A stretch of DNA of 64,000 bases from Alphaproteobacteria bacterium. GTDB lineage: Bacteria; Pseudomonadota; Alphaproteobacteria; UBA828. A program made the position numbers and the translations under genes. Below the pieces are notes generated by a model. That model was not told the DNA's origin, did not search any database, and was given only the letters and a program-made list of their open reading frames with translations. Positions 37,580 through 56,831 of the stretch are shown here, piece after piece (the first letter of the stretch is position 1; the number at the start of each line of letters is the position of its first letter). The stretch lies in contig OZ243972.1 in the NCBI GenBank assembly GCA_965214705.1, forward strand, positions 256,001 to 320,000. The letters run 5' to 3'.

Positions 37580-37920
37580 GGCAACTGGCCACCGCTCTCG
37601 AACGCCTTCGGGCGGAGGCGGGATACCCGGCGGAAGAACTCGAGGGCTGAGTGTTCCCGTCCCCGACGAGCGAACTGGGGTATATCGTGGAGCTTTTGCA
37701 TCCCTACACCCGCATCAGCCGGGCGGCCGGAACGAATTTCTGGTTCCATGGCCTGTGCAACTGCTTCATCACCGTGGCCGAGCGCGAGTTGATGCTGCCG
37801 CGCTCGCTGACCAAGCGATTGGTCAACCACGCTTGGCCTTCTGACGTGACCGAAGGCTACGCGGCGGACTGAACCTTGGAGCAACTCCGTGAGGCCGCGC
37901 AGCGCATCGCCGGTCGCTCC
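37580..37920 (+). pseudogene. C-terminal remnant of the same tyrosine integrase family as 9379 and 55599
   Basis: 'FWFHGLCNCFITVAERELMLPRSLTKRLVNHAWPSDVTEGYAAD*' with TGG->TGA stops and loss of the catalytic Arg. Confidence 0.85.
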
Positions 37921-39393: not shown

Positions 39394-40236
39394 TCACAAG
39401 AGCTCTATGTCGATCGCCTGCGGGCCGCGCGCGCCCTGCGCCACCATCACACTCACCCGCTGGGCCGGCTCCAGAGCGCCCAGGCCCGCCCGGTTGAGCA
39501 CATTCCCGTGCACGAACACGTCCCGGCCGCCGCCGTCTGGAACGACGAAGCCGTAGCCCCTGGCGGCGTCGTAGAACTTGACGAAGCCGCGACGCTCCTC
39601 GGCCGGCCCTGCCGGCACGTCATGGCCAACCCCGCGTTCGCGCGAACCATGCCGTGGCTCATCGCGCCCCGCACGGGGAGCCGGCGCCGTCGATGCGTCC
39701 ACGGCCAGGATGGAGGACACGACCGGCCCCCTCCGTCCGTCCACCACCTCGCAGGTCACACTGGCGCCCTGCGGGAGCCTGTCGTAGCCCGCCCCTTCGA
39801 CGACCGAGACATGACAGAACGCATCCGGTGAGCCGTCGTCGGGAGCCAGGAACCCGAAACCCCTCGCCGCAACGAACCATTTCACCGTCGCCACGAGACG
39901 GCGCGCGGCAGCCGGCACCCGCTCGCCCTGCACATGGCCGTACTCCCCGCGTATCGGCCCACCGCTCCCTGCCGGCGCGGTGGATGGAACCGGAGCATCG
40001 ACGGCGTGGATCCGCCCGACCTGCGGACCTTGCCGGCCCTGCACCACCTCGCAGGTGACGCTCGCGCCCTCGGGGAGCGTGTCCCAGCCCGCCTGAGACA
40101 CTGCCGAGGCATGGCAGAAGAGATCGCGCGAGCCGTCGGCAGGGGCCAGGAAGCCGTATCCCCTCACCGAATCGTACCACTTGACCGACGCAACGACCGC
40201 AGCGCCGGGGACTGCCTCTGAAACGATCTCCTGCAT
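39394..40236 (-). CDS. Protein with three tandem cold-shock domains
   Basis: Three repeats: 'VKWYDSVRGYGFL', 'VKWFVAARGFGFL', 'VKFYDAARGYGFV', each followed by 'D.F.H'. Confidence 0.88.
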   Translation of the reverse strand: MQEIVSEAVPGAAVVASVKWYDSVRGYGFLAPADGSRDLFCHASAVSQAGWDTLPEGASVTCEVVQGRQGPQVGRIHAVDAPVPSTAPAGSGGPIRGEYGHVQGERVPAAARRLVATVKWFVAARGFGFLAPDDGSPDAFCHVSVVEGAGYDRLPQGASVTCEVVDGRRGPVVSSILAVDASTAPAPRAGRDEPRHGSRERGVGHDVPAGPAEERRGFVKFYDAARGYGFVVPDGGGRDVFVHGNVLNRAGLGALEPAQRVSVMVAQGARGPQAIDIELL

Positions 40237-40577
40237 TCCGACCGACCTGCTTTCCGTGAACTGCCGAGCCGACCCCGCCGAGGGGTCCGCGGCGCCATGA
40301 AGATTCCGGCGGCTGGCCGCCGCCGGGCGGGCGCGCATCATATCGACCGCGCGCGGAGGGCGACAGGCTCCATCTGCCGCTCCGTCTCCTGTTCCGGGCT
40401 TCCCCGGATGGCGGCGCAGCGGCGTCCGCCGGCCCGCCGGCCTTGCGCCCCGCCGCACCCTCCGGCGCCTTCCGCTGCCCGCACGCCGGCGAGAGCCAGA
40501 GCCTGGCCGGGAGCGGGCGGGCGTTCCGGCGAGGGGATGCCCGCCGCGCGCAATCTCTGACCGGAGGAGGCCGGACG

Positions 40578-40895
40578 ATGCAGACGGCTACAGCAACCGA
40601 TCGCACCGCCAACACCTATCTCGTCCACCTGTTCGGTGCCGGGCTCGAGGACGAGCGCTACGAGGTGCAGCGCTTCCAGACCGCAGCGGACGGCGAGATC
40701 AGGCCCTGGCGCGCGGGCGCGCGGGCGAAGAACGGACGCAAGCAGGCCCGCAAGATCATGAGCCTGCGCTCGGTCCAGCGCCTTCGCCCCGACCGCAACG
40801 AGATCATCATTGCCAAGGGTGTCAGTGTCGGCGGCGGCATCCAGTACTGGGGCGAGTGGACGGTCAACTTCTCTGTCGATCGCAAGCATCGGTGA
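40578..40895 (+). CDS. Hypothetical protein (105 aa), paralog of 53751
   Basis: GGAGG RBS; 'TYLVHLFGAGLEDERYEVQRFQTAADGEIRP' is conserved in the second copy. Confidence 0.75.
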   Translation: MQTATATDRTANTYLVHLFGAGLEDERYEVQRFQTAADGEIRPWRAGARAKNGRKQARKIMSLRSVQRLRPDRNEIIIAKGVSVGGGIQYWGEWTVNFSVDRKHR

Positions 40896-40973
40896 CGCGC
40901 CGCCCGGCGGGGCCGCGCTGCCGCCGGGCCGTCCGCCCGCTCGACCTCATCGCAGCCGGGGAGGAGTTCGACC

Positions 40974-41783
40974 ATGCCGCATCGGACCCGCGATGACCGG
41001 CGCGCCGGCGAGAGGCGCCGGTACGAGAGTTCGACCGCAGAACGGCGCGCGCACGGCTTGTGTGTCCGCTGCGGCAACGCCCCGCCTGCGTCCGGGCGCG
41101 CGAAGTGCGAGCCGTGCCTTGAGCAGCGTCGCCTCGCCGACCGGGCCAGATATGCCGCAGCCAAGGCTGAAGGCCGCCCATACGGCGGCAGAGACCCCGA
41201 GGCTCGCCGGGGCAATGCGCGTGCGAGGTCCAGGCGCCGCTACGAGGCGCGGCGCGCCGCCGGAACATGCACACACTGTGGCCAGCGCCCGCCTGTGGCG
41301 GGGCGCAGCAGATGCGAGCCATGCCTCGTCCGCCGCAACGCCAAGGAGCGGGATCAGTGGGCCAGGCGGTGCGCTCTCGGGCTATGCGGCAAGTGCGGCA
41401 GGCCGGCGGGCGGCGCCTCGCGATGCGGCGCATGCGCCGCCGCCCAGTCCTGCGATCCGAGGGTCAGGCGCGCCTCCGCGCAGCGCCGATACTGGCGTCG
41501 GCGCGCCCTCTCGCGCTGTACCGATTGCGGCGAGTACGCGGCCGGCGCATCGCGATGCGAGCCCTGTGCGCGCCGGTCATGGGCGCGCTCCGCCGAGCAT
41601 CGCGGGCTGCCCGCGGGCCCGACCCGCTATCGCGTGCTGGAGATCGCAACCGGGGCTGATCACGGCCAGTGGGACTCCCTGGCCGAAGTGGCGGCTTGTC
41701 TGGCGTTCGCGAACCTCTCGCCCGAGGACGTCGTCATCGAGAGCGACGCCTCGCTCATGGCCTCGTTGACGGCATGGGCGTAA
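40974..41783 (+). CDS. Arg-rich protein with 8 CxxC motifs (four putative C4 zinc fingers), paralog of 54153
   Basis: CVRC/CEPC, CTHC/CEPC, CGKC/CGAC, CTDC/CEPC; RBS present; conserved C-terminal 'AEVAACLAFANL'. Confidence 0.8.
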   Translation: MPHRTRDDRRAGERRRYESSTAERRAHGLCVRCGNAPPASGRAKCEPCLEQRRLADRARYAAAKAEGRPYGGRDPEARRGNARARSRRRYEARRAAGTCTHCGQRPPVAGRSRCEPCLVRRNAKERDQWARRCALGLCGKCGRPAGGASRCGACAAAQSCDPRVRRASAQRRYWRRRALSRCTDCGEYAAGASRCEPCARRSWARSAEHRGLPAGPTRYRVLEIATGADHGQWDSLAEVAACLAFANLSPEDVVIESDASLMASLTAWA

Positions 41784-41947
41784 GGGGCGGCGGGACGGCG
41801 ACGCCCCAGCCATCCCTCTGACGCCGGAGAGGCTGGCCAGGGAGAGTTGGAGAGTAGCTTGGAGGAGGGTGAACGGAGGAGATCAGGAGAGAGATCGATC
41901 CGTTCGACAACCTTCGTCAGCAACCTGGATGAACAGGAGACAAGACC

Positions 41948-41989
41948 ATGGCATTCGGACTGAACAGAGCCGAAGTGATCGGCCGTCTT
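41948..41989 (+). pseudogene. ssb: 5' stub of a single-stranded DNA-binding protein gene
   Basis: MAFGLNRAEVIGRL after an AGGAG RBS matches the start of 55208; the sequence then switches abruptly to AT-rich DNA. Confidence 0.7.
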
Positions 41990-42202
41990 CTCGTGAATCC
42001 CGTTTTCTCAATTTATGCATCTGTAACACACTTACATTAGGCGGATAATTAGAGAGCTTGCCTAAGCAATGCTTCTCTCCAAATCACAGTCAACACATGG
42101 TCAACACGAAGGAGCAGAATCGACAATTTTCGATTTCGGCACGATCCACTAATATGACCCTGCCCCGTTTGCGCCGTCGCAAACAACGCAGGTCGGATCA
42201 CA

Positions 42203-43393
42203 ATGTCGAGCAATCCAAGCCGCGCGCCCCACGGCCGCACGATCAGAGACAGCAACGGATATGCCGCCTTCGCACCGGCACCGCTGCCTCCGCCGGTCGC
42301 ATGGGACGACGACCTCGTGGCCGCTCTCTCCACGGCGGATCGGGCCATCGGCCGGCTCGCGGGCGAAGGCAGGCGACTTCGCAACCCCCATCTCTTCGTC
42401 AAGCCATTCGTGCACCGCGAGGCGGTGCTGTCCAGCCGCATCGAGGGCACGCGCACCACCCTAGGCGAACTGCTCGTGGCCACGGCTGGTGGGACCAGCG
42501 CTAGAGCCTCCGCAGATCTCGAAGAGGTCGCCAACTATGTCGCTGCCCTCGAGCATGGATTGGAGCGTCTGTCCTCGCTGCCGCTCTCCCTGCGCCTCAT
42601 CAGGGAACTCCACGAACGCCTCATGCGCGGTGTGCGCGGAGACGCGGCGTTGCCCGGTGAGTTTCGGCGCAGCCAGAACTGGATCGGTCCACCCGGATGC
42701 AGCCTGAGCGAGGCCACCTACGTGCCCCCGCCCCCGACCGAGTTGATGGCGTGCCTCGATCCGTTCGAGCGCTTTCTCCATGACGATACGCTGCCCCCGC
42801 TGATCCATGCCGGCCTCGTCCACGTCCAGTTCGAGGCCATACATCCCTTCCTTGACGGCAACGGCCGCGTCGGCCGTCTGCTTGTCACGCTTCTTCTGGT
42901 CGAACGTGCCGTTCTTCCGTCGCCGCTGCTTTACCTGAGCGCCTACTTCGAGGCGACACGGGAGTTGTACTACGAGCATCTTCTGGCCGTGACACGGGAT
43001 GGAGCGTGGGAGCGGTGGCTGTGCTACTTCCTGCGCGGCGTCAAAGTCCAGGCCGAGGACGCGGTCGAGCGCATGGAACAGATCGACGGCCTTCTCGAGG
43101 ACTGGCGGGAAGAGCTTGGCGGCGCCCACTTGGGTCGACCCGGGGAAGTGTTGCGCCTGTTCGCCGAGAACCCGTTCCGGACCGTGAGGGGCGTTGCCGA
43201 GGAGTTGGGTGTCGCCTACACGACGGCCCAGCGCGCCGTCGAACGACTGCAGGTGGCGGGTATCGTCTCGCCGGTCGGCTCGGCGAAACGGAACCGCGTT
43301 TATTGCGCCCGGGATATGCTGGCAGTGCTGGAGGCGCCCCGCGCGGCGGCACGGTCGCTCCCGGAAGCGCTTCCCCCTCCAGAGACAGCATGA
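42203..43393 (+). CDS. Fic-family protein with C-terminal HTH
   Basis: 'EAVLSSRIEG' and Fic motif 'HPFLDGNGRVGR'. Confidence 0.9.
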   Translation: MSSNPSRAPHGRTIRDSNGYAAFAPAPLPPPVAWDDDLVAALSTADRAIGRLAGEGRRLRNPHLFVKPFVHREAVLSSRIEGTRTTLGELLVATAGGTSARASADLEEVANYVAALEHGLERLSSLPLSLRLIRELHERLMRGVRGDAALPGEFRRSQNWIGPPGCSLSEATYVPPPPTELMACLDPFERFLHDDTLPPLIHAGLVHVQFEAIHPFLDGNGRVGRLLVTLLLVERAVLPSPLLYLSAYFEATRELYYEHLLAVTRDGAWERWLCYFLRGVKVQAEDAVERMEQIDGLLEDWREELGGAHLGRPGEVLRLFAENPFRTVRGVAEELGVAYTTAQRAVERLQVAGIVSPVGSAKRNRVYCARDMLAVLEAPRAAARSLPEALPPPETA

Positions 43394-43439: not shown

Positions 43440-46400
43440 CTACACGCTTGCATGCTCGTCTGGCTCGAACACGAGCTCCGGCACGACCACCTCCCAGGTC
43501 TCGCATCTCGCATTGTCCCGATACTTGGGCTCCGATGCCTCGCGGCTCCACTCGACGACGGCAAAAACCCCGGCCGATCGGCAGCCCGTGCCTGCCGGCG
43601 GCTCAAAGCCGCTGGCCATGCGGCCCACCAGCATGCCCGCCCCGTCCACCAACTCCATCCTTCCGCTCTGCGCCATGCGCGTTTCCAGCGGGTCTCCGGG
43701 CGAGAGCGCAGAGATCGCGCGGTGGACGGGATGACGGGCGCGGTGCCGTCCTGCGAACCCGAGGTCCACCTCGCCGAGACCGGCGCGCGCATGGCGGCGG
43801 TGGAGAGCCTCGGGCGCGGGAGGGAGCTCGACCCGCTCCCGCTGCACCACCGAGGGGTTGCCCGACAGCGCGTCCTGCAATCGATGAGGACCCTCGAGGC
43901 GGGCAAGCGTGAGAGTGTGCCGGGCACGGGTCATGGCGACGTAGTACAGGCGGCGCGCCTCGTCGGGGTCTTCGCCCTGTCCCAGCCGGTTCCAGCCGCC
44001 GTCCAGCACGGCGACATGGTCGAACTCCAGCCCCTTGGCGCGGTGCGCGCTCAGCAGCAGCAGGCCGTGCTGGCGGCGACGGACGTCGCGGCCCCACTCG
44101 GCGAGCCACTCGATGAAGCGGTCAACCGGCATCTCCCCGGCGCCGGCCTCCAGCGCAAGCTCCTCGACGGCCTGCCGAAGCAGGTCGTTCCATGGGTCGG
44201 CCGGCTGCGATGACATCCAATCCCGCAAAGCGCCGGCATCGATCAAGCGCGGCTGCCGGACGCGCGCCCAAGCGACCAGCGCCCGGGTCTCGCGCAGGCG
44301 CCAGAAGCTCGGGATGTCTTCGTTGCCCATCTGCGCCGGTATCCCGTGCAGCTCGCAGAAGGCCCGCAGCGGCGCGAGGTACTCCCATGTGCGGGCGATC
44401 GCAGCGCAGCGCGACCAGTCCCAGCCGGGCGCGAGCGCGGCGAGGCGCCGGAACTCCGCCATGACGCATTGCGCCTGCGAGACGGCGTCCCCTCCCGCCG
44501 GCAGGATCTGCACCCTGCCGCGGGTTACGGGGTCCATCCCTTCCCACGGACCGCCCGGCGGATCCTTGGCCCGTGCCCGGTCGATGCGGATGGGATGTCC
44601 CGCCTTCATCCTCTCCCGCGCCGGCGCGATCACCGCGTTGGCCGCCGCCACGATATGCCCGCTCGAGCGGTAGTTCGACGTGAGGTACTTCGGCCGGGGT
44701 CCGTAATCCGCCTCGAACCGGCGGATGAACTCGACGGACGCGCCGTTGAAGGCGTAGACGTTCTGATCGTCGTCGCCCACCGCGAACAGGGTGAGCCTGC
44801 CAGCATCGTCCCCGAGCGTGCGCCCAGCGAGCGCCGATATCAGCTCGTACTGCTCCGGCCCGATATCCTGGTACTCGTCCACCAGAATCCAGCGGAACCC
44901 CGCCAGCAGCCGCTCGCGGCGCTCGTCCGCTTCCTCCGGCGGCAGGCCCTCTCCGCGCAGGAGCTCGACTGCGCGGCGGATCACCTCGCTGAAGGTATCC
45001 TCGTCCGGAGGCTCCTCCCGTCCGCTGAAGCTGGCCCCGGTCAGCCGCATCGCCAGTCCATGGCAGGTCAGAACGGTCACGCCGCGCGCGTTGTCGCCGA
45101 TCAGCCCGGCGAGGCGCCGGCGGATGTCGACCGCCGCGTGACGGTTGTACGCCAGCGCCAGGATGCCGCGCGCACTCTCCCGTTTCGCGCGGACGAGCCA
45201 GGCAATGCGATGCACCAGCACTCGCGTCTTGCCGGAACCGGGACCGGCCAGCACCAGCACATGGGCCTGCTCACGGTCGTCGGCGACGATGTCCTGCTGG
45301 ACCGGGTTCTTCAGGCTCTCGACGATGGCGCGCCAGGATTCGGGCGTGGTCTCGCGGCCGATCTCCTCGTCCCGCCCGGGCAGCCAGCACTCGAGGAACT
45401 CGTCCTCGCTCAGCGCAAAGTAGTCCATGGCCAGGCGCAGCGCGTCGCCCATCGCGGCGAGGCCGCGCTGGGCGAACTCCACCATCACGTGGATCTGCAG
45501 CACCTGCCCCTTGTAGTGAAGCGCGAGCGGCTCGAAGTCGGTGCCGGCGAAGCCGCGCCGCTCCCGCTGCTCCAGGCGGATCGTCATCGCCGGGCGGAAC
45601 ACCGCCAGCCCCTTGTTGAGGCGGATCACGTCCAGCTCGTGTAGCCAGAGCAGCGCGCGGTCCAGCAGCCTGGCGGTGTCCTTGACGCCGCTCTTCAGCA
45701 CCAGGTCCCCCTCGATCGCCTGCAGCAGGTTGCCGAGGGTGGTCTCCGCCAGAAGGTCCGTGCCATGGACGCCGGAAGGCAGGCAGCCGATGAGATGCTC
45801 CAGCAGGCGCACGGCGCCCTCGCGCCGGCGCCGCGCCGTCTCCTCCAGGGCTCCCCAGTCACGCTGCAGGGCAACCCGCACGGTCTCGGCATCGAGCTTC
45901 CTCACCGCCAGGCTTCCGCCTGCACCGTCCTCGCCCCAGCCGTCGTGGGCGATGCCCCGCACGATGCGCCAGAGCCGCTCCGGCAGAGGCTCGGGCAGGC
46001 CCCGGTCGCGCAGCACCTGGGCGGCGATGCGCAGGTGCAGGGATGAGGCGTCGCCCTTGCCCAGGTCCGGCGCCGCTTCGCGCATGTGGGAGATCAGCGC
46101 GGTCTCCAGCGCCGCCGCCTCATTCAGGCGCGTCGGCGAGGACCGCTCGACGCCCGCGTGCACGAACGCGGTCAGCGCCGTGTCGTTGCTGGCGATGCCG
46201 AGCCGCTCGAGATCGTAGAGCGCGGCGCGCACACCATCGGGACCGAGACCCGATGCCGCCATCAGCTCGTCGGTGGTGACGCCTTCGTCGGACGGGGCCT
46301 CGATCAGCGTCTCGGCGATCCGCAGCAGCTGCCCGCGATAGGGGTCCGCGATGTTCGCCCGCGCGAGCCGTCCCGCGGCTTGTTCAACCGAGTTCACGCG

Positions 46401-48662
46401 CAGCGAGGAGGGGAAAACCTCGACGAAGTTCTCCTCCCGGCTCAGCAGCTCCGCCTCTTCCAGCCAGGAGACGGCGGTGCGCACGCGGGTGTCGTCGGTC
46501 GCGCTGTCGCGCGCGAACGCCATGTCCTCGTCCTCGCCCAGGATCTCGCCCGCCGTCGCCACCACGTCCCCGCCGGAGCGCTTCTTCCGGTCCAGGTTGC
46601 GCAGCGCCCGCAGGATGCCGTGAATCTCCGCCCTGGTGAGCCGCGAGCGCGCCGACATGCCGAACTGGCGCTCCACGTCGTCCGCCGCATACAGCAGCAC
46701 GCAGCGCGCCGACGCCCGGTCGCGCCCGGCGCGGCCCGCCTCCTGGAGGTAGTTCTCCAGGGACCCCGGAATGTCCGCGTGGATCACCAGCCGCACGTCC
46801 GGCTTGTCGATCCCCATGCCGAAGGCGTTGGTCGCGGCGATCGCGCGAAGCGCGCCGCCGATGAAGCGCCGCTGCACGTCCTTCTTGGTCTCCGGAGGCA
46901 GGCCGGCATGGAAGCGGTCCGCCGCCACCTCCTTCGATTGCAGGTATTCCGCGACCTCCTCGCTCTGCCGCCGCGTCGCGCAATAGACGATCGCGCCGCC
47001 GGGCGCCTCCGGCGGCAAATGCGTAATCAGCACGCGGTGGATGTCGGCAAACTTCTCGCCGGACGACGTCGGGATCACTTCGAAAGTCAGGTTGGTGCGC
47101 TCCGCCCCGCCGTCGAACACGGTGAGCTCGATTTCGAGCTCGTCCCGGAAGTAGCGCACGATATCGCCGGTGACGTCCGGCCTGGCCGTCGCGGTCAGGC
47201 AGAGCACGGGCGGGATCGGCCCCGGACCGGCCTTCTCCCGGATGAAGCGGCCCACGTAGCGGTAGTCCGGCCTGAAGTCGTGGCCCCAGCGCGACAGGCA
47301 GTGGGCCTCGTCCAGAACCCAGGCACCGATCTCGCGCTGGTCGAGCGCCCGGCGAAGCGTGCGGGCGCGAAGCTGCTCCGGCGAGATCAGCAATATTCCC
47401 GCGTCTCCCAGCCGTACCCGGTCCAACGCGTCGACACGTTCGGGCATCGACTGCAGGCCGTTCACGGTCACGCACGAGCCGATCCCGCGCGCCTCCAGAC
47501 CCGCCACTTGGTCCGCCATCAGCGCGACCAGGGGAGAGATCACGACCGTCAGAGCGCCGGTCTTGTCGTAGCGGGAGAGCGCAGGGATCTGGTAGCAGAG
47601 CGACTTGCCGGTGCCCGTGGGCAGGATGCCGAGCACGTGCCTGCCCGCCAGCGCCGCTTCGACGATGGCCCGCTGCATGGGGCGTCCCTCGTCGTCCGCA
47701 GGCTCGGGACGGAAGCCGTCGAAGCCGAACCAGCGCTTGAGCTCCTTCCCGGCATCGTGCCGCTCGCGGCACCAGCCGCACTCCGAATCGGCGCAGGCCG
47801 CGTCCCTGAGGCGGCGCACCAGGCGCCCGGTCTCGGGGAACTGGTGGCGCACCCAGGGCGGCATGACGGAGTTGCCGCCGGCCACCGACAGCCATGCCAG
47901 CGCATAGGCCAACGCCCAGCCATGCTGTCGCGCTCGCGCCACCGCGTCGCGTCCGTGGGTCAGGCACGCGGCGCCTTCCAGCCGCCGGTACACGGCCGCC
48001 CCGGCCTCCTCCTCCGTGGGGCGGGGCGATCGGCGGAGATCTGCGAACGTCTCGTCCAGGGCGCGGTCGACTCCGGCGTGCTCCGGCGTGCCCAGCCAGT
48101 GCCACACCGTCAGCAGGTCGGCCGGAGCCTGCCCGAGCGCCCGCACCTGGTCGCCGAACACCTCCAGGGCGAGGCGGGCATCCAGCTCCGGATCGTTGAC
48201 CCGGCCGCGCCTGAGCCCGCCGTCCTGATAGTGCTTGACCAGATGGTGATAGGGATTGCGCGGAAAGGCCAGGGGGCTGAGGCGCAAGGTGTCAACCGCC
48301 GGCAGCGTCAGCAGCTTCAGATCCGGCTTGGCCGCCGCGAGATGGGGCAGGTCGAAGGCGATCAGGTTATGACCCAGCACGAAGTCCGCCCCCTCGGCGA
48401 GGCCGTCGAGCTTCGCCAGCGCACGCGCCAGTCCCGCGCCCGAGTGGACCAGGCGTTGGCCGGTATCGGGGCGGACCGCCCCGAAGGCGCGGATGCGGCC
48501 GTGCCGCCTGCCGACCTCCAGGTCGAGGGAGACGCAGCGGGGCCGGAAGGTAGTGGCTTCGTTCGCCGCCGCATCCCGCTCGGCCTCGACCACGGGCGAC
48601 TCACCCGCCAGCTGCTTGATCGCCGGTCCGGCGATGCCCCGCGGTTTGTCCTGGCCGTGCAA
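43440..48662 (-). CDS. Large fusion: DEDD-like exonuclease + RecQ (SF2) helicase + UvrD (SF1) helicase
   Basis: 'SLDLEV..GHNLIAFD'; 'LPTGTGKS', 'DEAHC', 'QEAGRAGRD'; 'AGPGSGKT', 'DEYQD', 'GDDDQ', 'HRAKGLEF', 'YVAMTRA'. Start position uncertain. Confidence 0.88.
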   Translation of the reverse strand: MHGQDKPRGIAGPAIKQLAGESPVVEAERDAAANEATTFRPRCVSLDLEVGRRHGRIRAFGAVRPDTGQRLVHSGAGLARALAKLDGLAEGADFVLGHNLIAFDLPHLAAAKPDLKLLTLPAVDTLRLSPLAFPRNPYHHLVKHYQDGGLRRGRVNDPELDARLALEVFGDQVRALGQAPADLLTVWHWLGTPEHAGVDRALDETFADLRRSPRPTEEEAGAAVYRRLEGAACLTHGRDAVARARQHGWALAYALAWLSVAGGNSVMPPWVRHQFPETGRLVRRLRDAACADSECGWCRERHDAGKELKRWFGFDGFRPEPADDEGRPMQRAIVEAALAGRHVLGILPTGTGKSLCYQIPALSRYDKTGALTVVISPLVALMADQVAGLEARGIGSCVTVNGLQSMPERVDALDRVRLGDAGILLISPEQLRARTLRRALDQREIGAWVLDEAHCLSRWGHDFRPDYRYVGRFIREKAGPGPIPPVLCLTATARPDVTGDIVRYFRDELEIELTVFDGGAERTNLTFEVIPTSSGEKFADIHRVLITHLPPEAPGGAIVYCATRRQSEEVAEYLQSKEVAADRFHAGLPPETKKDVQRRFIGGALRAIAATNAFGMGIDKPDVRLVIHADIPGSLENYLQEAGRAGRDRASARCVLLYAADDVERQFGMSARSRLTRAEIHGILRALRNLDRKKRSGGDVVATAGEILGEDEDMAFARDSATDDTRVRTAVSWLEEAELLSREENFVEVFPSSLRVNSVEQAAGRLARANIADPYRGQLLRIAETLIEAPSDEGVTTDELMAASGLGPDGVRAALYDLERLGIASNDTALTAFVHAGVERSSPTRLNEAAALETALISHMREAAPDLGKGDASSLHLRIAAQVLRDRGLPEPLPERLWRIVRGIAHDGWGEDGAGGSLAVRKLDAETVRVALQRDWGALEETARRRREGAVRLLEHLIGCLPSGVHGTDLLAETTLGNLLQAIEGDLVLKSGVKDTARLLDRALLWLHELDVIRLNKGLAVFRPAMTIRLEQRERRGFAGTDFEPLALHYKGQVLQIHVMVEFAQRGLAAMGDALRLAMDYFALSEDEFLECWLPGRDEEIGRETTPESWRAIVESLKNPVQQDIVADDREQAHVLVLAGPGSGKTRVLVHRIAWLVRAKRESARGILALAYNRHAAVDIRRRLAGLIGDNARGVTVLTCHGLAMRLTGASFSGREEPPDEDTFSEVIRRAVELLRGEGLPPEEADERRERLLAGFRWILVDEYQDIGPEQYELISALAGRTLGDDAGRLTLFAVGDDDQNVYAFNGASVEFIRRFEADYGPRPKYLTSNYRSSGHIVAAANAVIAPARERMKAGHPIRIDRARAKDPPGGPWEGMDPVTRGRVQILPAGGDAVSQAQCVMAEFRRLAALAPGWDWSRCAAIARTWEYLAPLRAFCELHGIPAQMGNEDIPSFWRLRETRALVAWARVRQPRLIDAGALRDWMSSQPADPWNDLLRQAVEELALEAGAGEMPVDRFIEWLAEWGRDVRRRQHGLLLLSAHRAKGLEFDHVAVLDGGWNRLGQGEDPDEARRLYYVAMTRARHTLTLARLEGPHRLQDALSGNPSVVQRERVELPPAPEALHRRHARAGLGEVDLGFAGRHRARHPVHRAISALSPGDPLETRMAQSGRMELVDGAGMLVGRMASGFEPPAGTGCRSAGVFAVVEWSREASEPKYRDNARCETWEVVVPELVFEPDEHASV

Positions 48663-48681: not shown

Positions 48682-50989
48682 CTAACAGGGCGCCCGGCGG
48701 CGCCGGCCGAGCCGGATCGAGCATCGCCCATGCCGGCCGGCCCCAAGGCCCGAACGCCGGGCCCGGCAGATCTCGCCGGCGTCGTCGGCCGTGCGGCGGG
48801 ATGCCGATCCGCCGAGCCATTCGTCGAGCTTCGACCAGCGCCGGCGTCCCGAGACGTTGCGCACCGCGATCGCCACCGCCTTCTTCTGTCCCACCAGCAC
48901 CACCAGCCGCTTGCCCCGCGTCACCCCGGTGTAGAGCAGACTACGCCGCAGCATCGCGTAGTGCTGCGTCAGCACCGGGATGACCACCGCCGGATACTCC
49001 GAGCCCTGGCTTTTGTGCACGGTCGCGGCATAGGCCGGCACCAGCGTGTCCAGCCCGCCGAAGCCGTAGACATGGTCGCGTCCGCTCGAAGCGTGCCGTG
49101 AGCTCCCCGGCCTCGGGGTCGACGTCGACAACCTGGCCGATGTCGCCGTTGTAGACCTCCTTGTCGTAGTCGTTCTCGATCTGCATCACCTTGTCGCCGG
49201 GCGCGAAGGTCCAGCCGAAGCGCTCCACCCTGCGCTCGCCGGCCGGGTTGAGGGCGGCCTGAAGCTCGATGTTGAGCGAACGCGCGCCCGCCCCGCCCCG
49301 GTTCATCGGACACAGCACCTGGATATCGCGTACCGGGTCGAGGCCGAAGCGCTTCGGGATGCGCGTCTTCACCAGCTCGACGATCCTGGCGGCGGCGGTC
49401 TCCGGGTCGTCCGCCGGCACGAAGTAGAAGTCGCTGTCGCCGTCGGGCCGTGACAGGTCGGGGATGGCGCCCCGGTTGATCCCGTGAGCCGAGGTCACGA
49501 TCCGGCTCCGCACCGCCTGGCGGAACACCTCGGTCAGCCGCGCCACAGGCACCGCGCCCGAGACGATGATGTCGGCGAGCACCTGGCCGGGTCCCACGGA
49601 GGGCAGCCGGTCGACATCGCCCACGATCAGCAGCGCGGCTTCGTCGGGCACCGCCGCCAGCAGCGAGCGCATCAGCGGGACATCCACCATCGAGGTCTCG
49701 TCGATTACCAGAAGGTCGCAGTCAAGCGGGTTGGCCGCATCGCGCCTGAAGCCGCCGTGCCCAGGGTCCACCTCCAGCAGGCGATGCACCGTCTTCGCCT
49801 CCATCCCGGTGGCCTCGCTCATCCGCTTCGCGGCGCGCCCGGTCGGCGCGCACAGGAGAATGTCCACGCCCTTGGCCGAGAGGATGCGCAGGATCGCGTT
49901 GACGATCGTCGTCTTGCCCACGCCAGGCCCGCCCGTGACCACGGTGGCCTTGGCGGTGAGCGCAATACGGACCGCGTCGGCCTGGCCCGCTGCCAGGGCA
50001 AGGCCGGTCTTCCGCTCGACCCAGGGCAGCGCCTTCCCGATATCGATGTCCGGCCAGGGCAGCGGGCCGGCCGCGATCCGCAGAATCCGGTCCGCGATCG
50101 CCTGCTCCGCCCGGTAGAGGCCCCCGAGGAACACGCAGGGGGTATCGGCCACCGTGTCCGCGACCACGCTGCCTTCGGCCAACTCAAGGTCGAGCGCGCT
50201 TCGGACCAGGTCGTCGGGAACCTCCAGAAACCGGGATGCGAGCGGCCCCAGCTCTTCCGCCGGCAGGCCGCAATGCCCCTCGTCCATCGCCTCGGTCAGC
50301 GCATAGGAGATGCCCGCTCTAACCCGAATCGTCGCCGTCTTCTCGATGCCGAGCTTCATCGCGATGGTGTCGGCGGTCCTGAAGCCGATCCCGCGTATGT
50401 CGCGGGCGAGGCGGTAGGGGTTCTCCGTCATCACCTCGATGGCGTCCGCACCGTAGGTCCTGAATATGCGCACCGCCCGCGCCGTGCCCACGCCATGGCC
50501 GTGCAGGAATACCATGATCTCGCGCGACGCCTTCTGCTCCGCCCACGCGCCGGTGATGCGCCCGGCCCGGACCTTCCCGATCCCGGTCACCTCGCGAAGC
50601 CGTTCCGGCTCCGCCTCGATCACGTCGAACATCTTCTCGCCGAAGGCCCGCACCAGCTTGCCGGCATAGACGGGGCCGATGCCCCGGATCATGCCCGAGC
50701 CCAGGTACTTCTCGATGCCCTCCACGGATGACGGTGTGGACGTGCGCACGAAGCGCGCCTTGAACTGGTGCCCGTGGGTGCGGTCGTTGACCCATTCGCC
50801 CGACGCCGTGATCCATTCCCCGGCTCCACCATCGCGGCTCGGCCCACCACCGTGACAAGGTCGCGATGGCCCCCTGGCCTTCGTCCTGAGAACGCAGAAG
50901 CCGTTCTCGGGGTTGTGGTAGGTGACGCGCTCCACCAGGCCGGCCAGGACCTCCCGCTCCTCGGACGGCCGCTGCCGGCCGGCGGTCAA
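48682..50989 (-). pseudogene. recD2: Second RecD2 helicase copy, frameshifted
   Basis: Closely similar to 17340-19562; mutually compensating frameshifts near 50830-50875 and an uncompensated one near 49080. Confidence 0.85.
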
Positions 50990-51080
50990 GCCGCGCCGGG
51001 CGCGGATTGCGCCGCCCGCTCCCCGTTGCGCGAGGCGGGCATGCGCGTGTCGTGCGCTGCCGCTCCGGCGTCCCTGCGGT

Positions 51081-53450: not shown

Positions 53451-53750
53451 CGACGAGCGGGGTGCGCACGGCGGTGCGACCGGCGCCTTGCCCGATCGCA
53501 TTCCGAGGCGCGGCCCGGGAGTTTCCCGCACCCGCGACCGGCAACCTGCTGCCCATGCCGCCGCTCGCCTATCGGCCTGGGGCGAGGCACTAATCGTATC
53601 TTCACCCCCGCTCATCCCGCCTGCCACAAACGTCTTCGCCGTCACGCCGCCTGGAGGGAGAGCCTGGCCGTGACCGGGCCGGCGGGGCGGGCGGCCTGGC
53701 GGAGAGGACGCGCCTGCCGCTCGCGATCACGAACCGCGGGAGGGCAAACG

Positions 53751-54074
53751 ATGAGCACGGCGAGAACGATCCAACGCGCTGCCAGCACCTACCTGGTGCA
53801 CTTCTTCGGCGGCGGCCTCCAGGAGGAAGGCCGCTACGTGGTCGAGAGATATGAGACTGCCGCTTCAGGTGAGATCCGCCCGCTCGCTGCCGACGAGGAG
53901 AAGGGTACGGGTGGGCGCAAGCGGCGCACGACCCTGTCGTGCCGCGCCGTCCGGCGCCTGCGACCGGTGTCCAACGAGATTATCGTCGCTACCAATGTCA
54001 GCCGCGACGCAGGCATGCAGCTGTTCGGTTCCGCGGCCGCCGGTATCGCGCTGCGCGGCAAGTGGCGCTGCTGA
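53751..54074 (+). CDS. Hypothetical protein (107 aa), paralog of 40578
   Basis: 'TYLVHFFGGGLQEEGRYVVERYETAASGEIRP...V.RLRP..NEII'. Confidence 0.75.
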   Translation: MSTARTIQRAASTYLVHFFGGGLQEEGRYVVERYETAASGEIRPLAADEEKGTGGRKRRTTLSCRAVRRLRPVSNEIIVATNVSRDAGMQLFGSAAAGIALRGKWRC

Positions 54075-54152: not shown

Positions 54153-54950
54153 ATGCCCGACAGTGACGAGAGCCCGCAGGAGCGCCAGCGCCGGCGTAAT
54201 GCCGACCGAGTCGCCCGTGGCATCTGCACCCGGTGCGGAGCGTTCCCGCCCGAGCCCGGCCTCAAGCTGTGCCGGCGTTGCGGCGAGAAGCGGCGCGCCG
54301 CCGAGAAGGTCCGTCGCGCCAGGGCCCGGGCGGAGGGCAGGATCTACGCCGGTCGAGATCCGGAAACGACACGGCGCGCCGCCCGTGCCGCCGACAAGCG
54401 GCGGCGGAAGGCGCGGCGGGACGCAGGCTTCTGCACGTCGTGCGGACACCGCCGGCCCGCCGATGGCCGTTCCATCTGCGAGCCGTGCCGCGACGGTCAG
54501 CGCGCGATCGAGCGCAAGCGATGCGCTACCCGCCGTGCTGCCGGGCGATGCGTACGGTGCGGGAAACCGGCATTCGGCGGCTCGTCCCGCTGCGGCCGGT
54601 GCGCCGTTCTCGAAGCGGAACGCGCGTCGCCCGAACGCAGGAAGGCGGCCAGCAGGAAACGCTACGCCAGACGCAGGGCGCGGAGGGCTTGCGTGGATTG
54701 CTCGATTCCTGTTGCCGGCACTGCGCGTTGCCCGGACTGCGCCCGGCGATCCAACTCGCGCGCCCTCGACCCTCACCGCCTGCCCGTGCCGTTCCCCGAG
54801 TACACCGTGGTCAGGCTCGACACCGGCGAGACGATCGAGAGCTTCGAGACCGAGGCGGAAGCCGCCGCCTGCCTGGTCTTCGCCAAGCTCCGCCCCGACC
54901 AGGTGGAGATACGCGCCAACGTCCCGTTGATCGCGCTCTCTCCGCCATGA
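54153..54950 (+). CDS. Arg-rich protein with 8 CxxC motifs, paralog of 40974
   Basis: CTRC/CRRC, CTSC/CEPC, CVRC/CGRC, CVDC/CPDC; 'AEGRIYAGRDPE'; 'AEAAACLVFAKL'. Confidence 0.8.
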   Translation: MPDSDESPQERQRRRNADRVARGICTRCGAFPPEPGLKLCRRCGEKRRAAEKVRRARARAEGRIYAGRDPETTRRAARAADKRRRKARRDAGFCTSCGHRRPADGRSICEPCRDGQRAIERKRCATRRAAGRCVRCGKPAFGGSSRCGRCAVLEAERASPERRKAASRKRYARRRARRACVDCSIPVAGTARCPDCARRSNSRALDPHRLPVPFPEYTVVRLDTGETIESFETEAEAAACLVFAKLRPDQVEIRANVPLIALSPP

Positions 54951-55207
54951 ACGCGGCATCGCCGCGTGCAGGCATCCCGCAGGTAAAGCCACCCTCAGCC
55001 CCGGCGATTCCACGCCGACGCATCCCGCAGCGCCAGCATACTGATCGAACGTGCGGTCCGCCCGGTGGTCGTCCTCCCGGCGGGCGTCAGGGCAGGCGGC
55101 AGCCGGGAGGAGGAGAAGAGCTTTGGAGGAGTGAACGGGAGGTGGATCGAGAGAGATCGCCCCGTTCGGCAACCATCGTCAGAACTCGCACGTGAAGGAG
55201 CACGATC

Positions 55208-55450
55208 ATGAGTTTCGGACTGAACCGCGCAGAAGTCATTGGCCGCCTGGGTGCGGACGTCACAATCAACAGCCTCGCCTCCGGCGGGCGCGTGGCCAAT
55301 TTGTCGGTGGCGACCGACGAGGGGTATCTGGATCGCCAATCAGGCCAGAGGGTGGATCGGACAGAGTGGCACCGGGTGGTCAGCTTCCAGAGCGGGCTGA
55401 TCGACATGCTTGAGAAACATACGGACAACGGATGGACACACATGCGCTAA
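55208..55450 (+). pseudogene. ssb: Truncated single-stranded DNA-binding protein
   Basis: 'LNRAEVIGRLGAD', 'VANLSVAT', 'TEWHRVV'; the OB fold breaks off at about 55420 and there is no acidic tail. Confidence 0.85.
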
Positions 55451-55598
55451 GCTGCGTTGGAAACGACAGAAATATCATATATTCATTGAGTTACTGGAAA
55501 CCTCGCCCGAAACCAGCTCGACATAAGACACGCTACTATGCGCACCGGTTTTCTTTCAGGTGTTGATAATCGTGTTGCTCGGCGCTATGCTCCGCACC

Positions 55599-56831
55599 AT
55601 GAAAAATCAGAACCCCGGAAAACGCATCGCCAGGGTCAGGACCCACCTGACCAAGCGCGCCGTCGAGGCGCTCGAGCCCGGCGAGAAGTCCTGGATCGCC
55701 TGGGACGACCGCCTCACCGGCTTCGGTGTCCGTGTCCAGCCCTCGGGCACCAAATCCTTCATCGTCAACTACCGCCCCGGCGACGGCGGGCGCAAGGCGC
55801 CCAACAAGCGCGTCGTCATCGGACGCTTTGGCCGCATGGCCCCCGACGAGGCCCGGCGCAAGGCCCAGGACCTGCTCGGGCGTGTCGCCCGGGGCGAAGA
55901 CCCGGCCGGCGAGCGGTCGGAGGCGCGCGGCGTGCCGACGCTGGCCGAGGCTTTCGAGACTTACATGAGGGCCAATCCAAACCGGGCGGTCAACACCGTC
56001 AGGCTCTACCGCCAGAACCTGAGGGTCAATCTCGGGGACTGGCTGAAGCGTCCCCTCGACGGCATCTCGCGGCAAGACGTGGAGGACCGGTTCAACTTCA
56101 TCACCCGCAAACATGGCTGGGCGGGGGCGAACCAGACGCTTTCGATGCTGCGTTCGATCTACCGCCGGCCCTGCGTCGACCACGAGGGGTTGCGCAATCC
56201 CGTGGAGTTGTGGCTCGCGGCCGGCGGCCGCTTCCACCGCATGCGGCGGCGGCGGATCTCCGGTCCGGTCGAGGTGCTGCCGCGCTGGCGCGCGGGAATT
56301 GACGCGGTCGACCTCGATCCCGCGATCCGCGACATCTTCCTGATCGGGCTCTACACGGGCATGCGCATGGGCGAGGTCGTGTCACTACGCTGGGAGAGGG
56401 TGGACCTTGAGCGGCGCATTCTCAGGGTCGAGGAGACCAAGACCGGGGAGCCTCTGGAGCTTCCGGTGACCCGGCAGCTCGCCGCGATCTTCGAGCGCCG
56501 CCGGGCGCACGGCGGCGAGCCAAGTTCGGAGGCGGAGGGCTGGCTCTTCCCGGCCCCCAGGAAGGCCGCGTCGGGCCATGTCTCGCACCTTTCGCAGTTC
56601 TACCCCGACATCACCAAGGCCGCCGGAACCCGTTTCTGGTTTCACGGGCTGCGCAACGCCTTCATCACGGTGGCCGAGCGCGAGCTGATGCTGCCGCGCT
56701 CGCTGACCAAGCGGCTGGTCAACCACGCCCGCCCCCCCGACGTGACCGAGGGCTACGCTGCGGACTGGACCGTCGAACAGCTTCGCGAACCGGCACAGCG
56801 CGTTGCGGATCGGATTGACGAACTGATCTGA
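55599..56831 (+). CDS. Tyrosine integrase with arm-binding domain, paralog of 9379
   Basis: 'TGMRMGEV', 'TKTG', 'HGLR', 'LVNHA', 'TEGY'. Confidence 0.9.
   Translation: MKNQNPGKRIARVRTHLTKRAVEALEPGEKSWIAWDDRLTGFGVRVQPSGTKSFIVNYRPGDGGRKAPNKRVVIGRFGRMAPDEARRKAQDLLGRVARGEDPAGERSEARGVPTLAEAFETYMRANPNRAVNTVRLYRQNLRVNLGDWLKRPLDGISRQDVEDRFNFITRKHGWAGANQTLSMLRSIYRRPCVDHEGLRNPVELWLAAGGRFHRMRRRRISGPVEVLPRWRAGIDAVDLDPAIRDIFLIGLYTGMRMGEVVSLRWERVDLERRILRVEETKTGEPLELPVTRQLAAIFERRRAHGGEPSSEAEGWLFPAPRKAASGHVSHLSQFYPDITKAAGTRFWFHGLRNAFITVAERELMLPRSLTKRLVNHARPPDVTEGYAADWTVEQLREPAQRVADRIDELI

What the first reader, a model, noticed from the sequence alone, without database searches (positions are those of the whole stretch)
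40578..41989. Uncharacterised three-gene module (small protein - four-zinc-finger protein - ssb) present in two diverged copies
Seen: the order [~105-aa hypothetical][~267-aa protein with exactly 8 CxxC motifs as four CxxC-x8-11-CxxC pairs joined by Arg-rich helices, plus a ~50-aa C-terminal domain 'Y.V....TG......AE.AACL.FA.L.P..V.I'][ssb] occurs here and at 53751-55450. The copies are clearly diverged but keep all 16 cysteines, which implies selection. I recognise no family for either protein. Established: ssb marks the early-expressed leading or establishment region of conjugative elements, where anti-defence genes cluster. Inference: this is a tandem-zinc-finger nucleic-acid-binding protein with a partner, acting as a regulator or an establishment/anti-defence system of an integrative element family.
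Basis: partly seen in the sequence, partly recalled or inferred. Interest (0 to 1): 0.75.

Follow-up and report, generated by a model that had tools for sequence, protein, structure and literature searches.

The report
Zinc-ribbon array gene pair heading ssb operon
Two diverged copies of an unannotated gene pair (a small all-beta protein and a protein made of four zinc ribbons) sit in front of broken ssb genes in decayed mobile elements, and the same pair heads the ssb operon of a large family of integrative mobile elements in mostly uncultured marine Alphaproteobacteria.

Summary
Both copies of [small ORF][four-zinc-ribbon ORF] are real genes, 46-48% identical as proteins, and keep all 16 ribbon cysteines. 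The "ssb" after each is only a 5' remnant (14 and about 75 codons). Neither protein matches a curated family (Pfam, NCBIfam, PHROGs, PADLOC), a PDB sequence or a PDB fold. The pair is not orphan. In 80 related genome loci the small ORF lies within 700 nt upstream of the zinc-ribbon gene in 61 of 69 testable loci, and a full-length ssb lies downstream in 57 of 67. Next come a toprim protein, a DUF2493/YAcAr protein, a NikA-like protein, integrases and sometimes a coupling protein. This is the backbone of an integrative mobilisable or conjugative element, often multi-copy per genome. The zinc-ribbon number varies from 4 to 8. Two conserved structured leaders were found, one before the small ORF and one before ssb. 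Their G.U bias places them on the sense strand, so they are RNA. Best reading (about 0.4): a basic RNA/ssDNA-binding pair that sets expression of the ssb establishment operon through these leaders. Direct ssDNA handling and anti-defence remain open. Function is untested, and the complex prediction could not be run.

The parts
40467..40580 (+). Conserved structured leader 1, directly upstream of small ORF 1. The GC-rich hairpin lies at about 40513-40549.
   Evidence: Covariance model R1 match, 58.1 bits, E 5e-9. Hairpin in the single-sequence fold, z -2.85. Covariation on 71 distinct sequences. Sense-strand G.U bias.
40578..40895 (+). Small ORF 1, 105 aa, basic (pI 10.6), predicted all-beta, no known family.
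40974..41783 (+). Zinc-ribbon array protein 1, 269 aa. It has four CxxC-x9/11-CxxC ribbons separated by Arg-rich helices, plus an acidic C-terminal domain of about 64 aa.
41829..41948 (+). Conserved ssb leader 1 (outer stem enclosing a variable inner hairpin).
41949..41990 (+). ssb remnant 1. Only the first 14 codons remain, then unrelated lower-GC DNA.
   Evidence: 13 of 14 residues identical to copy 2.
53628..53753 (+). Conserved structured leader 2, upstream of small ORF 2. The hairpin lies at about 53687-53724.
   Evidence: R1 match, 55.1 bits, E 2e-8. Fold (z -0.42, so weak taken alone).
53751..54074 (+). Small ORF 2, 107 aa.
54153..54950 (+). Zinc-ribbon array protein 2, 265 aa from ATG 54153. 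The frame is open from GTG 54093.
   Evidence: A GAGGA Shine-Dalgarno-like box lies before ATG 54153 (read from the alignment).
55088..55207 (+). Conserved ssb leader 2.
55208..55450 (+). ssb remnant 2, an 80-aa ORF. SSB homology ends near 55432.
55560..56831 (+). P4-type tyrosine integrase of the next element, which abuts the broken ssb 2.
   Evidence: Arm-DNA-bind_3 plus Phage_integrase. (71% nt identity to the integrase at 9387-10601).
37640..37916 (+). Integrase 3' remnant that probably marks the left end of the element carrying copy 1.
   Evidence: 71-76% nt identity to the 3' ends of both intact integrases.

Best explanation
The small ORF and the zinc-ribbon array gene are the first two genes of the ssb-led operon in the conserved backbone of a family of integrative mobilisable or conjugative elements. 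These elements occur mainly in uncultured marine Alphaproteobacteria.

Shown:
- Both genes are real, conserved and syntenic.
- The array has 4-8 zinc ribbons joined by Arg-rich helices (net charge +34) and ends in a small acidic domain found nowhere else.
- The small protein is a basic beta protein with no detectable fold relative.
- A conserved hairpin-containing leader precedes the small ORF and a second conserved leader precedes ssb. Both carry a G.U bias that places the structure on the sense strand, so they are mRNA structures.

Inferred: the array protein binds single-stranded nucleic acid multivalently through its ribbon-plus-Arg-helix units.

Proposed, not shown: with or without the small protein it binds the structured mRNA leaders and so sets the output of the ssb / toprim / DUF2493 establishment operon. 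This could be feedback repression, as ssDNA-binding proteins such as T4 gp32 or M13 gpV do on their own messages (recalled), or read-through control of the nut/N kind (recalled).

In this window both copies sit in truncated elements that have lost everything downstream of the start of ssb.
For: - Real genes: GC3 0.81-0.85 in frame. Median dN/dS is 0.59 (small) and 0.43-0.45 (array), against 0.38 for the ssb OB domain over the same 561 locus pairs. There are 16+1 invariant cysteines in 32 sequences.
- Family size: 557 array proteins and 1,496 small proteins at E<=1e-3.
- Synteny: small ORF within 700 nt upstream in 61 of 69 testable loci; ssb downstream in 57 of 67.
- Backbone: ssb, DUF7146+Toprim, YAcAr/DUF2493, NikA-like, AAA_30/UvrD_C_2 helicase, T4 coupling protein, integrases.
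- Annotated plasmid relatives carry toprim and DUF2493 co-oriented with a downstream relaxase.
- Charge.
- Leader: model R1 hits 73 places (E<=1e-3), and 67 of them end at a small-ORF start. 91.4% of cells are paired against 84.9% in shuffles, 10 of 14 pairs show double changes, 0 of 500 shuffles reach the observed values, and the slid controls score 0.04-0.09 against 0.25.
- Strand test: 91.4% paired on the sense strand against 79.3% on the antisense strand, with 124 G.U against 14 A.C. For the ssb leader stem the figures are 97.1% against 74.2%.
- The weak best PDB profile hit is ribosomal protein L37e, a basic RNA-binding zinc ribbon (E 0.015, not significant).
Against: - No binding was tested or predicted, because the complex job never ran.
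- The leaders could be bound by SSB, a host factor or the ribosome instead.
- The hairpin loop and 5' box are conserved while the protein's repeat number varies from 4 to 8 and its sequence diverges about twice as fast as ssb. That is odd for a sequence-specific regulator.
- The second copy of the 5' box, after ssb, lacks the hairpin.
- The covariation alignment was fitted to the model on the + strand, which favours that strand.
- No oriT was located, so 'establishment operon' rests on gene content and orientation only.
Confidence: 0.4

Rival explanations
1. Direct ssDNA handling at establishment. The array protein coats or organises the incoming transferred strand together with SSB, toprim and the DUF2493 protein (protection, priming or recircularisation). 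The small protein is a cofactor, and the leaders are regulated by something else.
For: It lies in an operon with ssb and, in relatives, with toprim and a DprA-like SLOG (YAcAr) protein. The repeat region is extremely basic. A variable repeat number (4-8) is easier to tolerate in a non-specific multivalent binder than in a specific regulator. The operon is co-oriented with the NikA-like or relaxase genes, as expected of leading-region genes (passages of PMC11541004 read).
Against: No similarity to any known ssDNA-binding fold. No oriT was located. No homologue was found in 72,556 plasmid records, although DUF2493 relatives are in 718 of them. The function is therefore not generally required by this backbone.
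Confidence: 0.25
2. Anti-defence effector pair expressed early in the recipient, for example by sequestering a nucleic-acid-like or nucleic-acid-bound defence component.
For: Its position next to ssb fits an operon oriented like leading-region genes, and such regions are enriched in anti-defence genes (PMC11541004, passages read). Both proteins diverge about twice as fast as ssb: mean protein distance is 0.45-0.46 against 0.23, and dN is 0.25-0.27 against 0.10 in 45 close pairs. The cargo next to the pair is rich in defence-type genes (RM, Fic, TA, DruA-like).
Against: No similarity to any known anti-defence or defence protein was found in the libraries on hand. No anti-defence library was available. 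dN/dS stays well below 1. Known DNA-mimic anti-restriction proteins are acidic (recalled), whereas these are strongly basic.
Confidence: 0.12
3. Element-specific immunity, exclusion or addiction. A diverging two-protein specificity module lets co-resident related elements tell self from non-self, or stabilises the element in the manner of a toxin-antitoxin pair.
For: The family is typically multi-copy per genome. Five loci come from one chromosome and six from each of two MAGs, and this window holds two copies 13 kb apart. The copies are strongly diverged. The small protein has invariant polar residues (His17, Glu75, Gln89) that could form an active or binding site.
Against: No TA-family domain was found in any of the 54 small-protein members or in the array protein. 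Both proteins are basic, unlike most toxin/antitoxin pairs with an acidic neutraliser. The gap between the two genes is 78 nt in both window copies, so the genes do not overlap.
Confidence: 0.08

Closest known systems
Double zinc ribbon / zinc-ribbon nucleic-acid-binding proteins (Pfam DZR PF12773, DZR_2 PF18912; ribosomal protein L37e)
   Same: C4 ribbons of the CxxC-x(9-11)-CxxC type in a very basic context. There are sub-threshold DZR_2/DZR hits for copy 2, DZR leads from the ESM Atlas, and the best though non-significant PDB profile hit is L37e.
   Different: Scores are below the curated cut-offs (21.9 against 27 bits), and copy 1 has no hit. Here 4-8 ribbons are strung together by long Arg-rich helices and end in a unique acidic beta-beta-alpha-beta domain. 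No PDB fold match at E<=0.001.
Leading-region gene sets of conjugative plasmids (ssb, psiB, ardA, Frpo promoters; Samuel et al. 2024, PMC11541004, passages read)
   Same: A gene block with ssb, uniformly oriented and pointing towards the mobilisation genes in relatives. It contains uncharacterised small genes.
   Different: No oriT was located. The structured elements here are on the sense strand and lack sigma-70 hexamers, so they are not Frpo-type template-strand promoters. The pair is absent from 72,556 plasmid records.
Alphaproteobacterial plasmid block ParB - DUF3768 - strawberry-notch helicase - toprim - DUF2493 - ... - relaxase
   Same: The same downstream genes (toprim, DUF2493/YAcAr at about 47-48% protein identity), and in the Mesorhizobium record the same orientation towards a relaxase gene downstream.
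   Different: In the family studied here the upstream part of the block is replaced by leader - small ORF - zinc-ribbon array - ssb.
Autoregulating ssDNA-binding proteins (T4 gp32, M13 gene V protein) and lambda N/nut antitermination (recalled, not tested)
   Same: The logic only. A basic nucleic-acid-binding protein is encoded behind a conserved structured mRNA leader made of a linear box plus a hairpin with a conserved purine-rich loop, and a second copy of the box lies further down the operon.
   Different: No sequence or fold relation, and no evidence of binding. This is an analogy for how it may work, not a membership claim.

Membership tests
Pfam DZR_2 / DZR / Zn_ribbon_3 (zinc-ribbon families) | HMM score at or above the curated gathering cut-off | tested here: not met
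   Copy 2: DZR_2 21.9 bits (cut-off 27), DZR 17.2 (27.3), Zn_ribbon_3 16.3 (27). Copy 1: no zinc-ribbon family listed.
Zinc-ribbon fold in general | Two CxxC knuckles 9-11 residues apart, conserved across the family | tested here: met
   Eight CxxC in four pairs in both copies. All 16 Cys are invariant in 32 sequences. Zinc binding itself was not tested.
SSB (PF00436), third gene of the module | Complete OB domain and acidic C-terminal tip | tested here: not met
   Copy 2 covers model positions 1-69 of 104. Copy 1 has 14 codons. There is no tail motif in the window. Relatives have full-length ssb of 135-160 aa.
Integrative conjugative / mobilisable element | Integrase plus relaxase or mobilisation genes, with or without a T4 coupling protein and T4SS | tested here: inconclusive
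   Among relatives, integrases occur in 18 loci, NikA-like in 10, AAA_30/UvrD_C_2 helicase in 15 and a coupling protein in 4. No relaxase catalytic domain or T4SS was seen within the 6-kb flanks. In the window there are integrases only.
Leading region of a conjugative element | Located next to oriT on the side that enters first, with genes oriented so that the T-strand is the template | not testable with these tools
   oriT and the nick site are unknown. Only co-orientation with the NikA-like or relaxase genes in relatives was seen.
Frpo-type ssDNA promoter | Long hairpin on the transferred (template) strand carrying -35 and -10 hexamers | tested here: not met
   No sigma-70-like site in either module. 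Stems vary by compensatory change rather than keeping hexamers. The G.U excess puts the structure on the sense strand.
Known defence systems (PADLOC) and phage protein families (PHROGs) | Significant profile match | tested here: not met
   PADLOC gave 0 hits for 6 proteins. The best PHROGs hit is E 0.0096, DksA-like, for one longer relative only.
Rfam RNA families (for the two leaders) | Score at or above the gathering threshold | tested here: not met
   0 matches in the whole window.

The most novel reading that the evidence does not exclude
The zinc-ribbon/Arg-helix unit is a new modular reader of single-stranded RNA or DNA. Its copy number (4-8) sets the length or valency of the site it recognises. 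With the new-fold small protein and two new structured mRNA leaders, it forms a previously undescribed post-transcriptional switch that times the establishment genes (ssb, primase-like toprim, DprA-like SLOG protein) of a whole family of integrative conjugative elements.
Probability: 0.12. Interest if true: 0.8.

Novelty: new variant of a known kind. Interest (0 to 1): 0.55.

Why it matters
The pair marks the boundary between variable cargo and the conserved backbone of a mobile-element family. This family is abundant and multi-copy in uncultured marine Alphaproteobacteria and is also found in Gammaproteobacteria, Binatia and Acidobacteriota bins. Neither protein has a name, a family or a solved relative, yet hundreds to more than a thousand sequence clusters exist. 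If the array is a modular binder of single-stranded nucleic acid with a cognate RNA leader, it would add a new protein-RNA recognition scaffold. It would also add a new way in which conjugative elements control their early genes. If it is only an accessory nucleic-acid-binding protein, the result is still a usable annotation for about 2,000 hypothetical protein clusters, plus two candidate cis-regulatory RNA motifs.

Tried and rejected
There is no result either way.
2. Triple cold-shock-domain gene (39394-40458, minus strand). I first took it for backbone because it is 76% identical to the L003 neighbour. It occurs in only 4 of 80 loci, so it is cargo.
3. ssb as an attachment site. The three breakpoints seen differ: codon 14 and about codon 75 here, and about codon 40-47 in L014, L057 and L072. 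The two intact integrases share no similarity upstream of their genes. Not supported.
4. Fusion of the C-terminal domain to a strawberry-notch helicase (P0303). The sequence shows an out-of-frame, low-complexity linker, so this is a chimeric ORF call and not a true fusion.
5. C-terminal-domain profile search. It gave 226 hits at E<=1e-3 in 1.84 billion representatives. I scanned 15 of the 150 listed against Pfam: 13 had no family, 1 had a sub-threshold DZR_2, and 1 was the chimera above. No new architecture was found.
6. Frpo-type promoter: rejected.
7. RNAalifold on plain MAFFT alignments found almost nothing (3 and 5 pairs). The hairpin needed a hand-set structure and a covariance model.
8. 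dN/dS between the two window copies (0.43 and 0.48) is at saturated dS of about 1.2. A first, unaligned pass over small ORFs gave a median of 0.91. It was replaced by the codon-aligned analysis with ssb as control. High GC3 compresses dS, so only the comparison with ssb is meaningful.
9. Distance correlation gave small-array r 0.50, small-ssb 0.39 and array-ssb 0.28. Linked genes share history, so this is no evidence of co-evolution.
10. Foldseek against BFVD was run for the small protein only. The array model was not compared with BFVD.
11. Literature searches returned no paper on this family, judged from listings and abstracts only.
Full report
**What is in the window**

The window is about 70% G+C. 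At 40578-40895 and 53751-54074 there are two small ORFs of 105 and 107 aa. Each is followed by a Cys- and Arg-rich ORF, at 40974-41783 (269 aa) and at 54093-54950. In the second, ATG 54153 follows a GAGGA box and gives 265 aa.

In the proposed frames GC3 is 0.81-0.85. In the other two + frames it is 0.50-0.70, as expected of real genes in a high-GC genome.

The copies are 46% (49/106, E 2e-30) and 48% (117/246, E 2e-41) identical as proteins. Each long protein has exactly eight CxxC motifs in four pairs, with spacers 11/11/9/9 and 11/11/10/9.

**The correction: ssb is broken in both copies**

In copy 1 an ssb start codon at 41949 is followed by 14 ssb-like codons. Lower-GC DNA unlike ssb or copy 2 and a Fic gene follow.

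In copy 2 the 80-aa ORF 55208-55450 matches Pfam SSB over model positions 1-69 of 104. It matches a full-length relative only to residue 74. A P4-type integrase gene starts 110 nt later. No SSB C-terminal tail motif occurs in any frame of the window.

A self-comparison shows:
- two related integrases (9387-10601 and 55610-56827, 71% nt identity);
- an integrase 3' remnant at 37640-37916;
- two RecD2 genes (88% nt identity);
- a cold-shock-gene fragment at 30758-30837.

The window is best read as an array of at least four related, partly deleted integrative elements. Two of them end inside ssb.

**Not a known family**

Neither protein reaches a curated threshold in any library:
- Pfam: the best hit is DZR_2 at 21.9 bits against a cut-off of 27, for copy 2 only.
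- NCBIfam, PHROGs and PADLOC: nothing significant.
- None of the 54 aligned small-protein homologues has a Pfam hit better than E 0.028.
- Profile searches of PDB sequences give only non-significant hits: ribosomal protein L37e at E 0.015 for the array, and E 0.19 for the small protein.

AlphaFold2 models are confident locally. The small protein has pLDDT 79 and pTM 0.72, with six strands and one short helix. The array has pLDDT 88 and pTM 0.44. Its secondary-structure elements are mostly helices flanking the zinc-knuckle segments, with strands and one helix (beta-beta-alpha-beta) in the C-terminal domain. The low pTM means the relative placement of the repeats is not predicted.

Foldseek found no match at E<=0.001 in the PDB for either model, nor in BFVD for the small protein. 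The ESM Atlas returned only a 'hypothetical protein' cluster and double-zinc-ribbon leads for the array, and nothing for the small protein.

**A large, linked family**

The word-indexed protein search found 557 array proteins at E<=1e-3 among 7,422 candidates. With a 54-sequence profile it found 1,496 small proteins among 4,115 candidates. Where a source gives a name, it is 'hypothetical protein'.

Array lengths fall into classes (about 269, 338, 382, 421 and 467 aa). In 73 distinct genomic ORFs the CxxC count is 8, 10, 12, 14 or 16 in 63 cases: 11, 27, 11, 9 and 5 respectively. The other 10 are odd or low counts, consistent with fragments, frameshifts or stop-to-stop over-extension. The protein is therefore an array of 4-8 ribbons.

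All 16 ribbon cysteines of the 4-ribbon form, plus one Cys in the C-terminal domain, are invariant in 32 sequences.

A profile of the 66-residue C-terminal domain found 226 proteins at E<=1e-3 among 1.84 billion representatives. Of the 15 I checked, none showed a different true architecture.

**Genomic context in relatives**

One scan of species-representative genomes gave 115 relatives, of which 80 loci were kept. Of these, 75 come from records labelled Alphaproteobacteria, mostly MAGs of Rhodospirillales and unclassified lineages, plus Paracoccaceae. The other 5 come from Gammaproteobacteria (Rariloculus twice; Ectothiorhodospiraceae), Binatia and Acidobacteriota bins.

Several genomes hold many copies. 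Five loci come from one chromosome, and six come from each of two MAGs.

By tblastn:
- The small ORF lies within 700 nt upstream of the array gene in 61 of 69 loci with enough flank. It lies further upstream in 3 and is absent in 5.
- ssb lies downstream in 57 of 67 loci, within 1.5 kb in 50, and is absent in 10.

In relatives ssb is full length, 135-160 aa.

Clustering of ORFs and Pfam scans give the usual order:
- variable cargo (integrase, restriction-modification, Fic, toxin-antitoxin, DruA-like, IS elements);
- leader, small ORF, array gene;
- 0-2 small ORFs;
- ssb;
- a 101-aa ORF (19 loci);
- DUF7146+Toprim (10 loci);
- a YAcAr/DUF2493 SLOG protein (41 loci);
- a small ORF;
- a NikA-like protein (10 loci).

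An AAA_30/UvrD_C_2 helicase occurs in 15 loci and a T4 coupling protein in 4.

The DUF2493 protein has relatives in 718 plasmid records, 460 of them typed conjugative. In two annotated examples it follows strawberry-notch and toprim genes. In the Mesorhizobium record the block points towards a relaxase gene downstream; in the Sulfitobacter record a ParB gene lies upstream.

The array and small proteins themselves have no tblastn match in 72,556 plasmid records, and the array has none in 50,697 phage records. The pair is therefore a lineage-specific head of a widespread conjugative-backbone operon.

**Selection**

Between the window copies dS is saturated at about 1.2, with dN/dS of 0.43 and 0.48.

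Over 561 pairs of 34 loci, median dN/dS values are:

| Region | Median dN/dS |
|---|---|
| Small protein | 0.59 |
| Array C-terminal domain | 0.45 |
| Last 200 array codons | 0.43 |
| ssb OB domain (control) | 0.38 |

High GC3 compresses dS, so only the comparison with ssb is informative. The pair is constrained to a similar degree. Its proteins nevertheless diverge about twice as fast as ssb, with mean distances of 0.46 and 0.45 against 0.23.

**Two structured leaders (new observation)**

The 120 nt before the small ORF are conserved across the family. They contain a linear 5' box and a GC-rich hairpin of about 14 bp with a purine-rich hexaloop. The hairpin is predicted in 7 of 8 single-sequence folds.

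A covariance model built from a hand-set structure finds 73 matches at E<=1e-3 in 907 kb. Of these, 67 end at a small-ORF start, including both window copies.

On 71 distinct sequences:
- 91.4% of cells pair, against 84.9% in shuffles;
- 10 of 14 pairs show changes on both sides;
- 0 of 500 shuffles reach any observed measure;
- sliding the partner by 1-3 columns drops the covariation score from 0.25 to 0.04-0.09.

The caveat is that this alignment was fitted to the model.

The 15-nt core of the 5' box occurs 50 times on the + strand and 4 times on the - strand of the loci. Of the 50, 39 lie within 130 nt before a small ORF, 7 within 400 nt after the ssb stop, and 4 elsewhere.

A second conserved leader of about 110 nt precedes ssb, in the window as well (41829-41948 and 55088-55207). 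One of its stem pairs switches cleanly between A-U (22), G-C (14) and G-U (12).

Both structures are strand-specific:

| Structure | Paired, sense strand | Paired, antisense strand | G.U cells | A.C cells |
|---|---|---|---|---|
| Small-ORF leader hairpin | 91.4% | 79.3% | 124 | 14 |
| ssb leader stem | 97.1% | 74.2% | 55 | 0 |

They are therefore mRNA structures, or sense-strand structures. They are not template-strand ssDNA promoters of the Frpo type.

No sigma-70-like promoter or intrinsic terminator lies within either module. Rfam has no match in the window.

**How it most likely works**

Shown: gene reality, conservation, synteny, the repeat architecture, the charge distribution (repeat region net +34 and pI 11.1; C-terminal domain pI 4.4; small protein pI 10.6), and the sense-strand leaders.

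Inferred: the ribbon-plus-Arg-helix units bind single-stranded nucleic acid.

Proposed: the array protein, perhaps with the small protein docked on its acidic C-terminal domain, binds the leaders and sets expression of the ssb/toprim/DUF2493 genes. Those genes plausibly serve complementary-strand synthesis and establishment after transfer. I put this at about 0.4.

The main rival, at 0.25, is that the pair acts directly on the incoming single strand. Anti-defence (0.12) and element-specific immunity or addiction (0.08) are not excluded.

The published leading-region picture has SSB and anti-defence genes uniformly oriented and ssDNA promoters before ssb (PMC11541004; I read passages only). It fits the orientation seen here but not the nature of the leaders.

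**Novelty and limits**

Six full-text searches gave no paper on this family (judged from listings and abstracts only). I rate it a new variant of a known kind. It is an accessory nucleic-acid-binding module of a conjugative-element operon, but with a new domain architecture, a partner of unrecognised fold and two candidate RNA motifs.

Left open:
- whether the two proteins bind each other (the complex job never ran);
- any direct evidence of zinc, RNA or DNA binding.

Noticed in passing
window 40467-40580 and 53628-53753 (+); 65 further places in loci L002-L080: Conserved leader of about 120 nt before the small ORF. It has a linear 5' box and a covarying GC-rich hairpin with a purine-rich hexaloop, on the sense strand. 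No Rfam family matches it. It is a candidate new cis-regulatory RNA.
   Followed up: yes
window 41829-41948 and 55088-55207 (+); upstream of ssb in 46 further loci aligned: Second conserved leader of about 110 nt, before ssb. An outer stem encloses a variable inner hairpin. One pair switches between A-U, G-C and G-U. The G.U excess places it on the sense strand.
   Followed up: partly
L003 7585, L034 7862, L040 8511, L055 8171, L066 8691, L068 7964, L074 8711 (+): The 15-nt core of the small-ORF leader box recurs 150-270 nt after the ssb stop codon, without the hairpin, in 7 loci. Overall it occurs 50 times on the + strand against 4 on the - strand. It may be a second regulatory site within the operon.
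   Followed up: partly
window 9367-10665, 37640-37916, 55560-56831; 17340-20228 and 48941-51097; 30306-30842: The window looks like an array of at least four related, truncated integrative elements. It holds two P4-type integrases (71% nt identity) plus an integrase remnant, two RecD2 genes (88% nt identity), and an HU-like gene next to a cold-shock-gene fragment where a third small/array/ssb module would be expected.
   Followed up: partly
L014 7148-7291, L057 7668-7814, L072 7990-8133: Three related loci carry a 47-48-aa ssb 5' fragment a few hundred bases before an intact ssb. With the two breakpoints in the window, ssb seems a recurrent site of rearrangement in this element family. The breakpoints differ, so a fixed attachment site is unlikely.
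   Followed up: partly
window 43440-48662 (-): A 1,740-aa protein combines a RecQ-like DEAD/Helicase_C core with a UvrD/REP helicase module. It lies between the broken ssb 1 and RecD2. It is an unusual double-helicase fusion, probably cargo.
   Followed up: no
window 42203-43393 (+) and 52344-53450 (+); L069 4539-5177: Two different Fic-domain genes (Fic_N+Fic+wHTH, and DUF4172+Fic) flank the modules. A third Fic gene sits directly upstream of the small ORF in L069. Fic genes seem to be recurrent cargo at this position.
   Followed up: no
window 10856-13171 (-); L061 3338-5665 (-): There is a DruA-like (Druantia) domain protein next to the first integrase. In L061 a DruA-like protein that also carries Tn5-type transposase domains is inserted between the small ORF and the array gene.
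   Followed up: no
window 22274-29409: An IS91-family transposase gene is followed by IS66-family copies (TnpB at 24108-24575 and 25414-25851). Two IS66 transposase genes in tandem are 95% identical at nucleotide level (26080-27748 against 27741-29409).
   Followed up: no
window 637-730 (+): ARAGORN calls a 94-nt tRNA-Ile(GAT) inside, and antisense to, a thiamine-pyrophosphate enzyme ORF (52-1734, minus strand) with GC3 of 0.91. It is probably a false positive.
   Followed up: no
window 57129-57344 and 57351-57797 (+): Two small adjacent ORFs just after the last integrase look like a HicA/HicB-type toxin-antitoxin pair. That resemblance is recalled. Pfam gave no hit at E<=1e-5.
   Followed up: no
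window 39394-40458 (-); L003 4414-5256: A protein with three cold-shock domains is transcribed divergently from small ORF 1. It is 76% identical to the neighbour in L003 but present in only 4 of 80 loci, so it is cargo and not backbone.
   Followed up: yes
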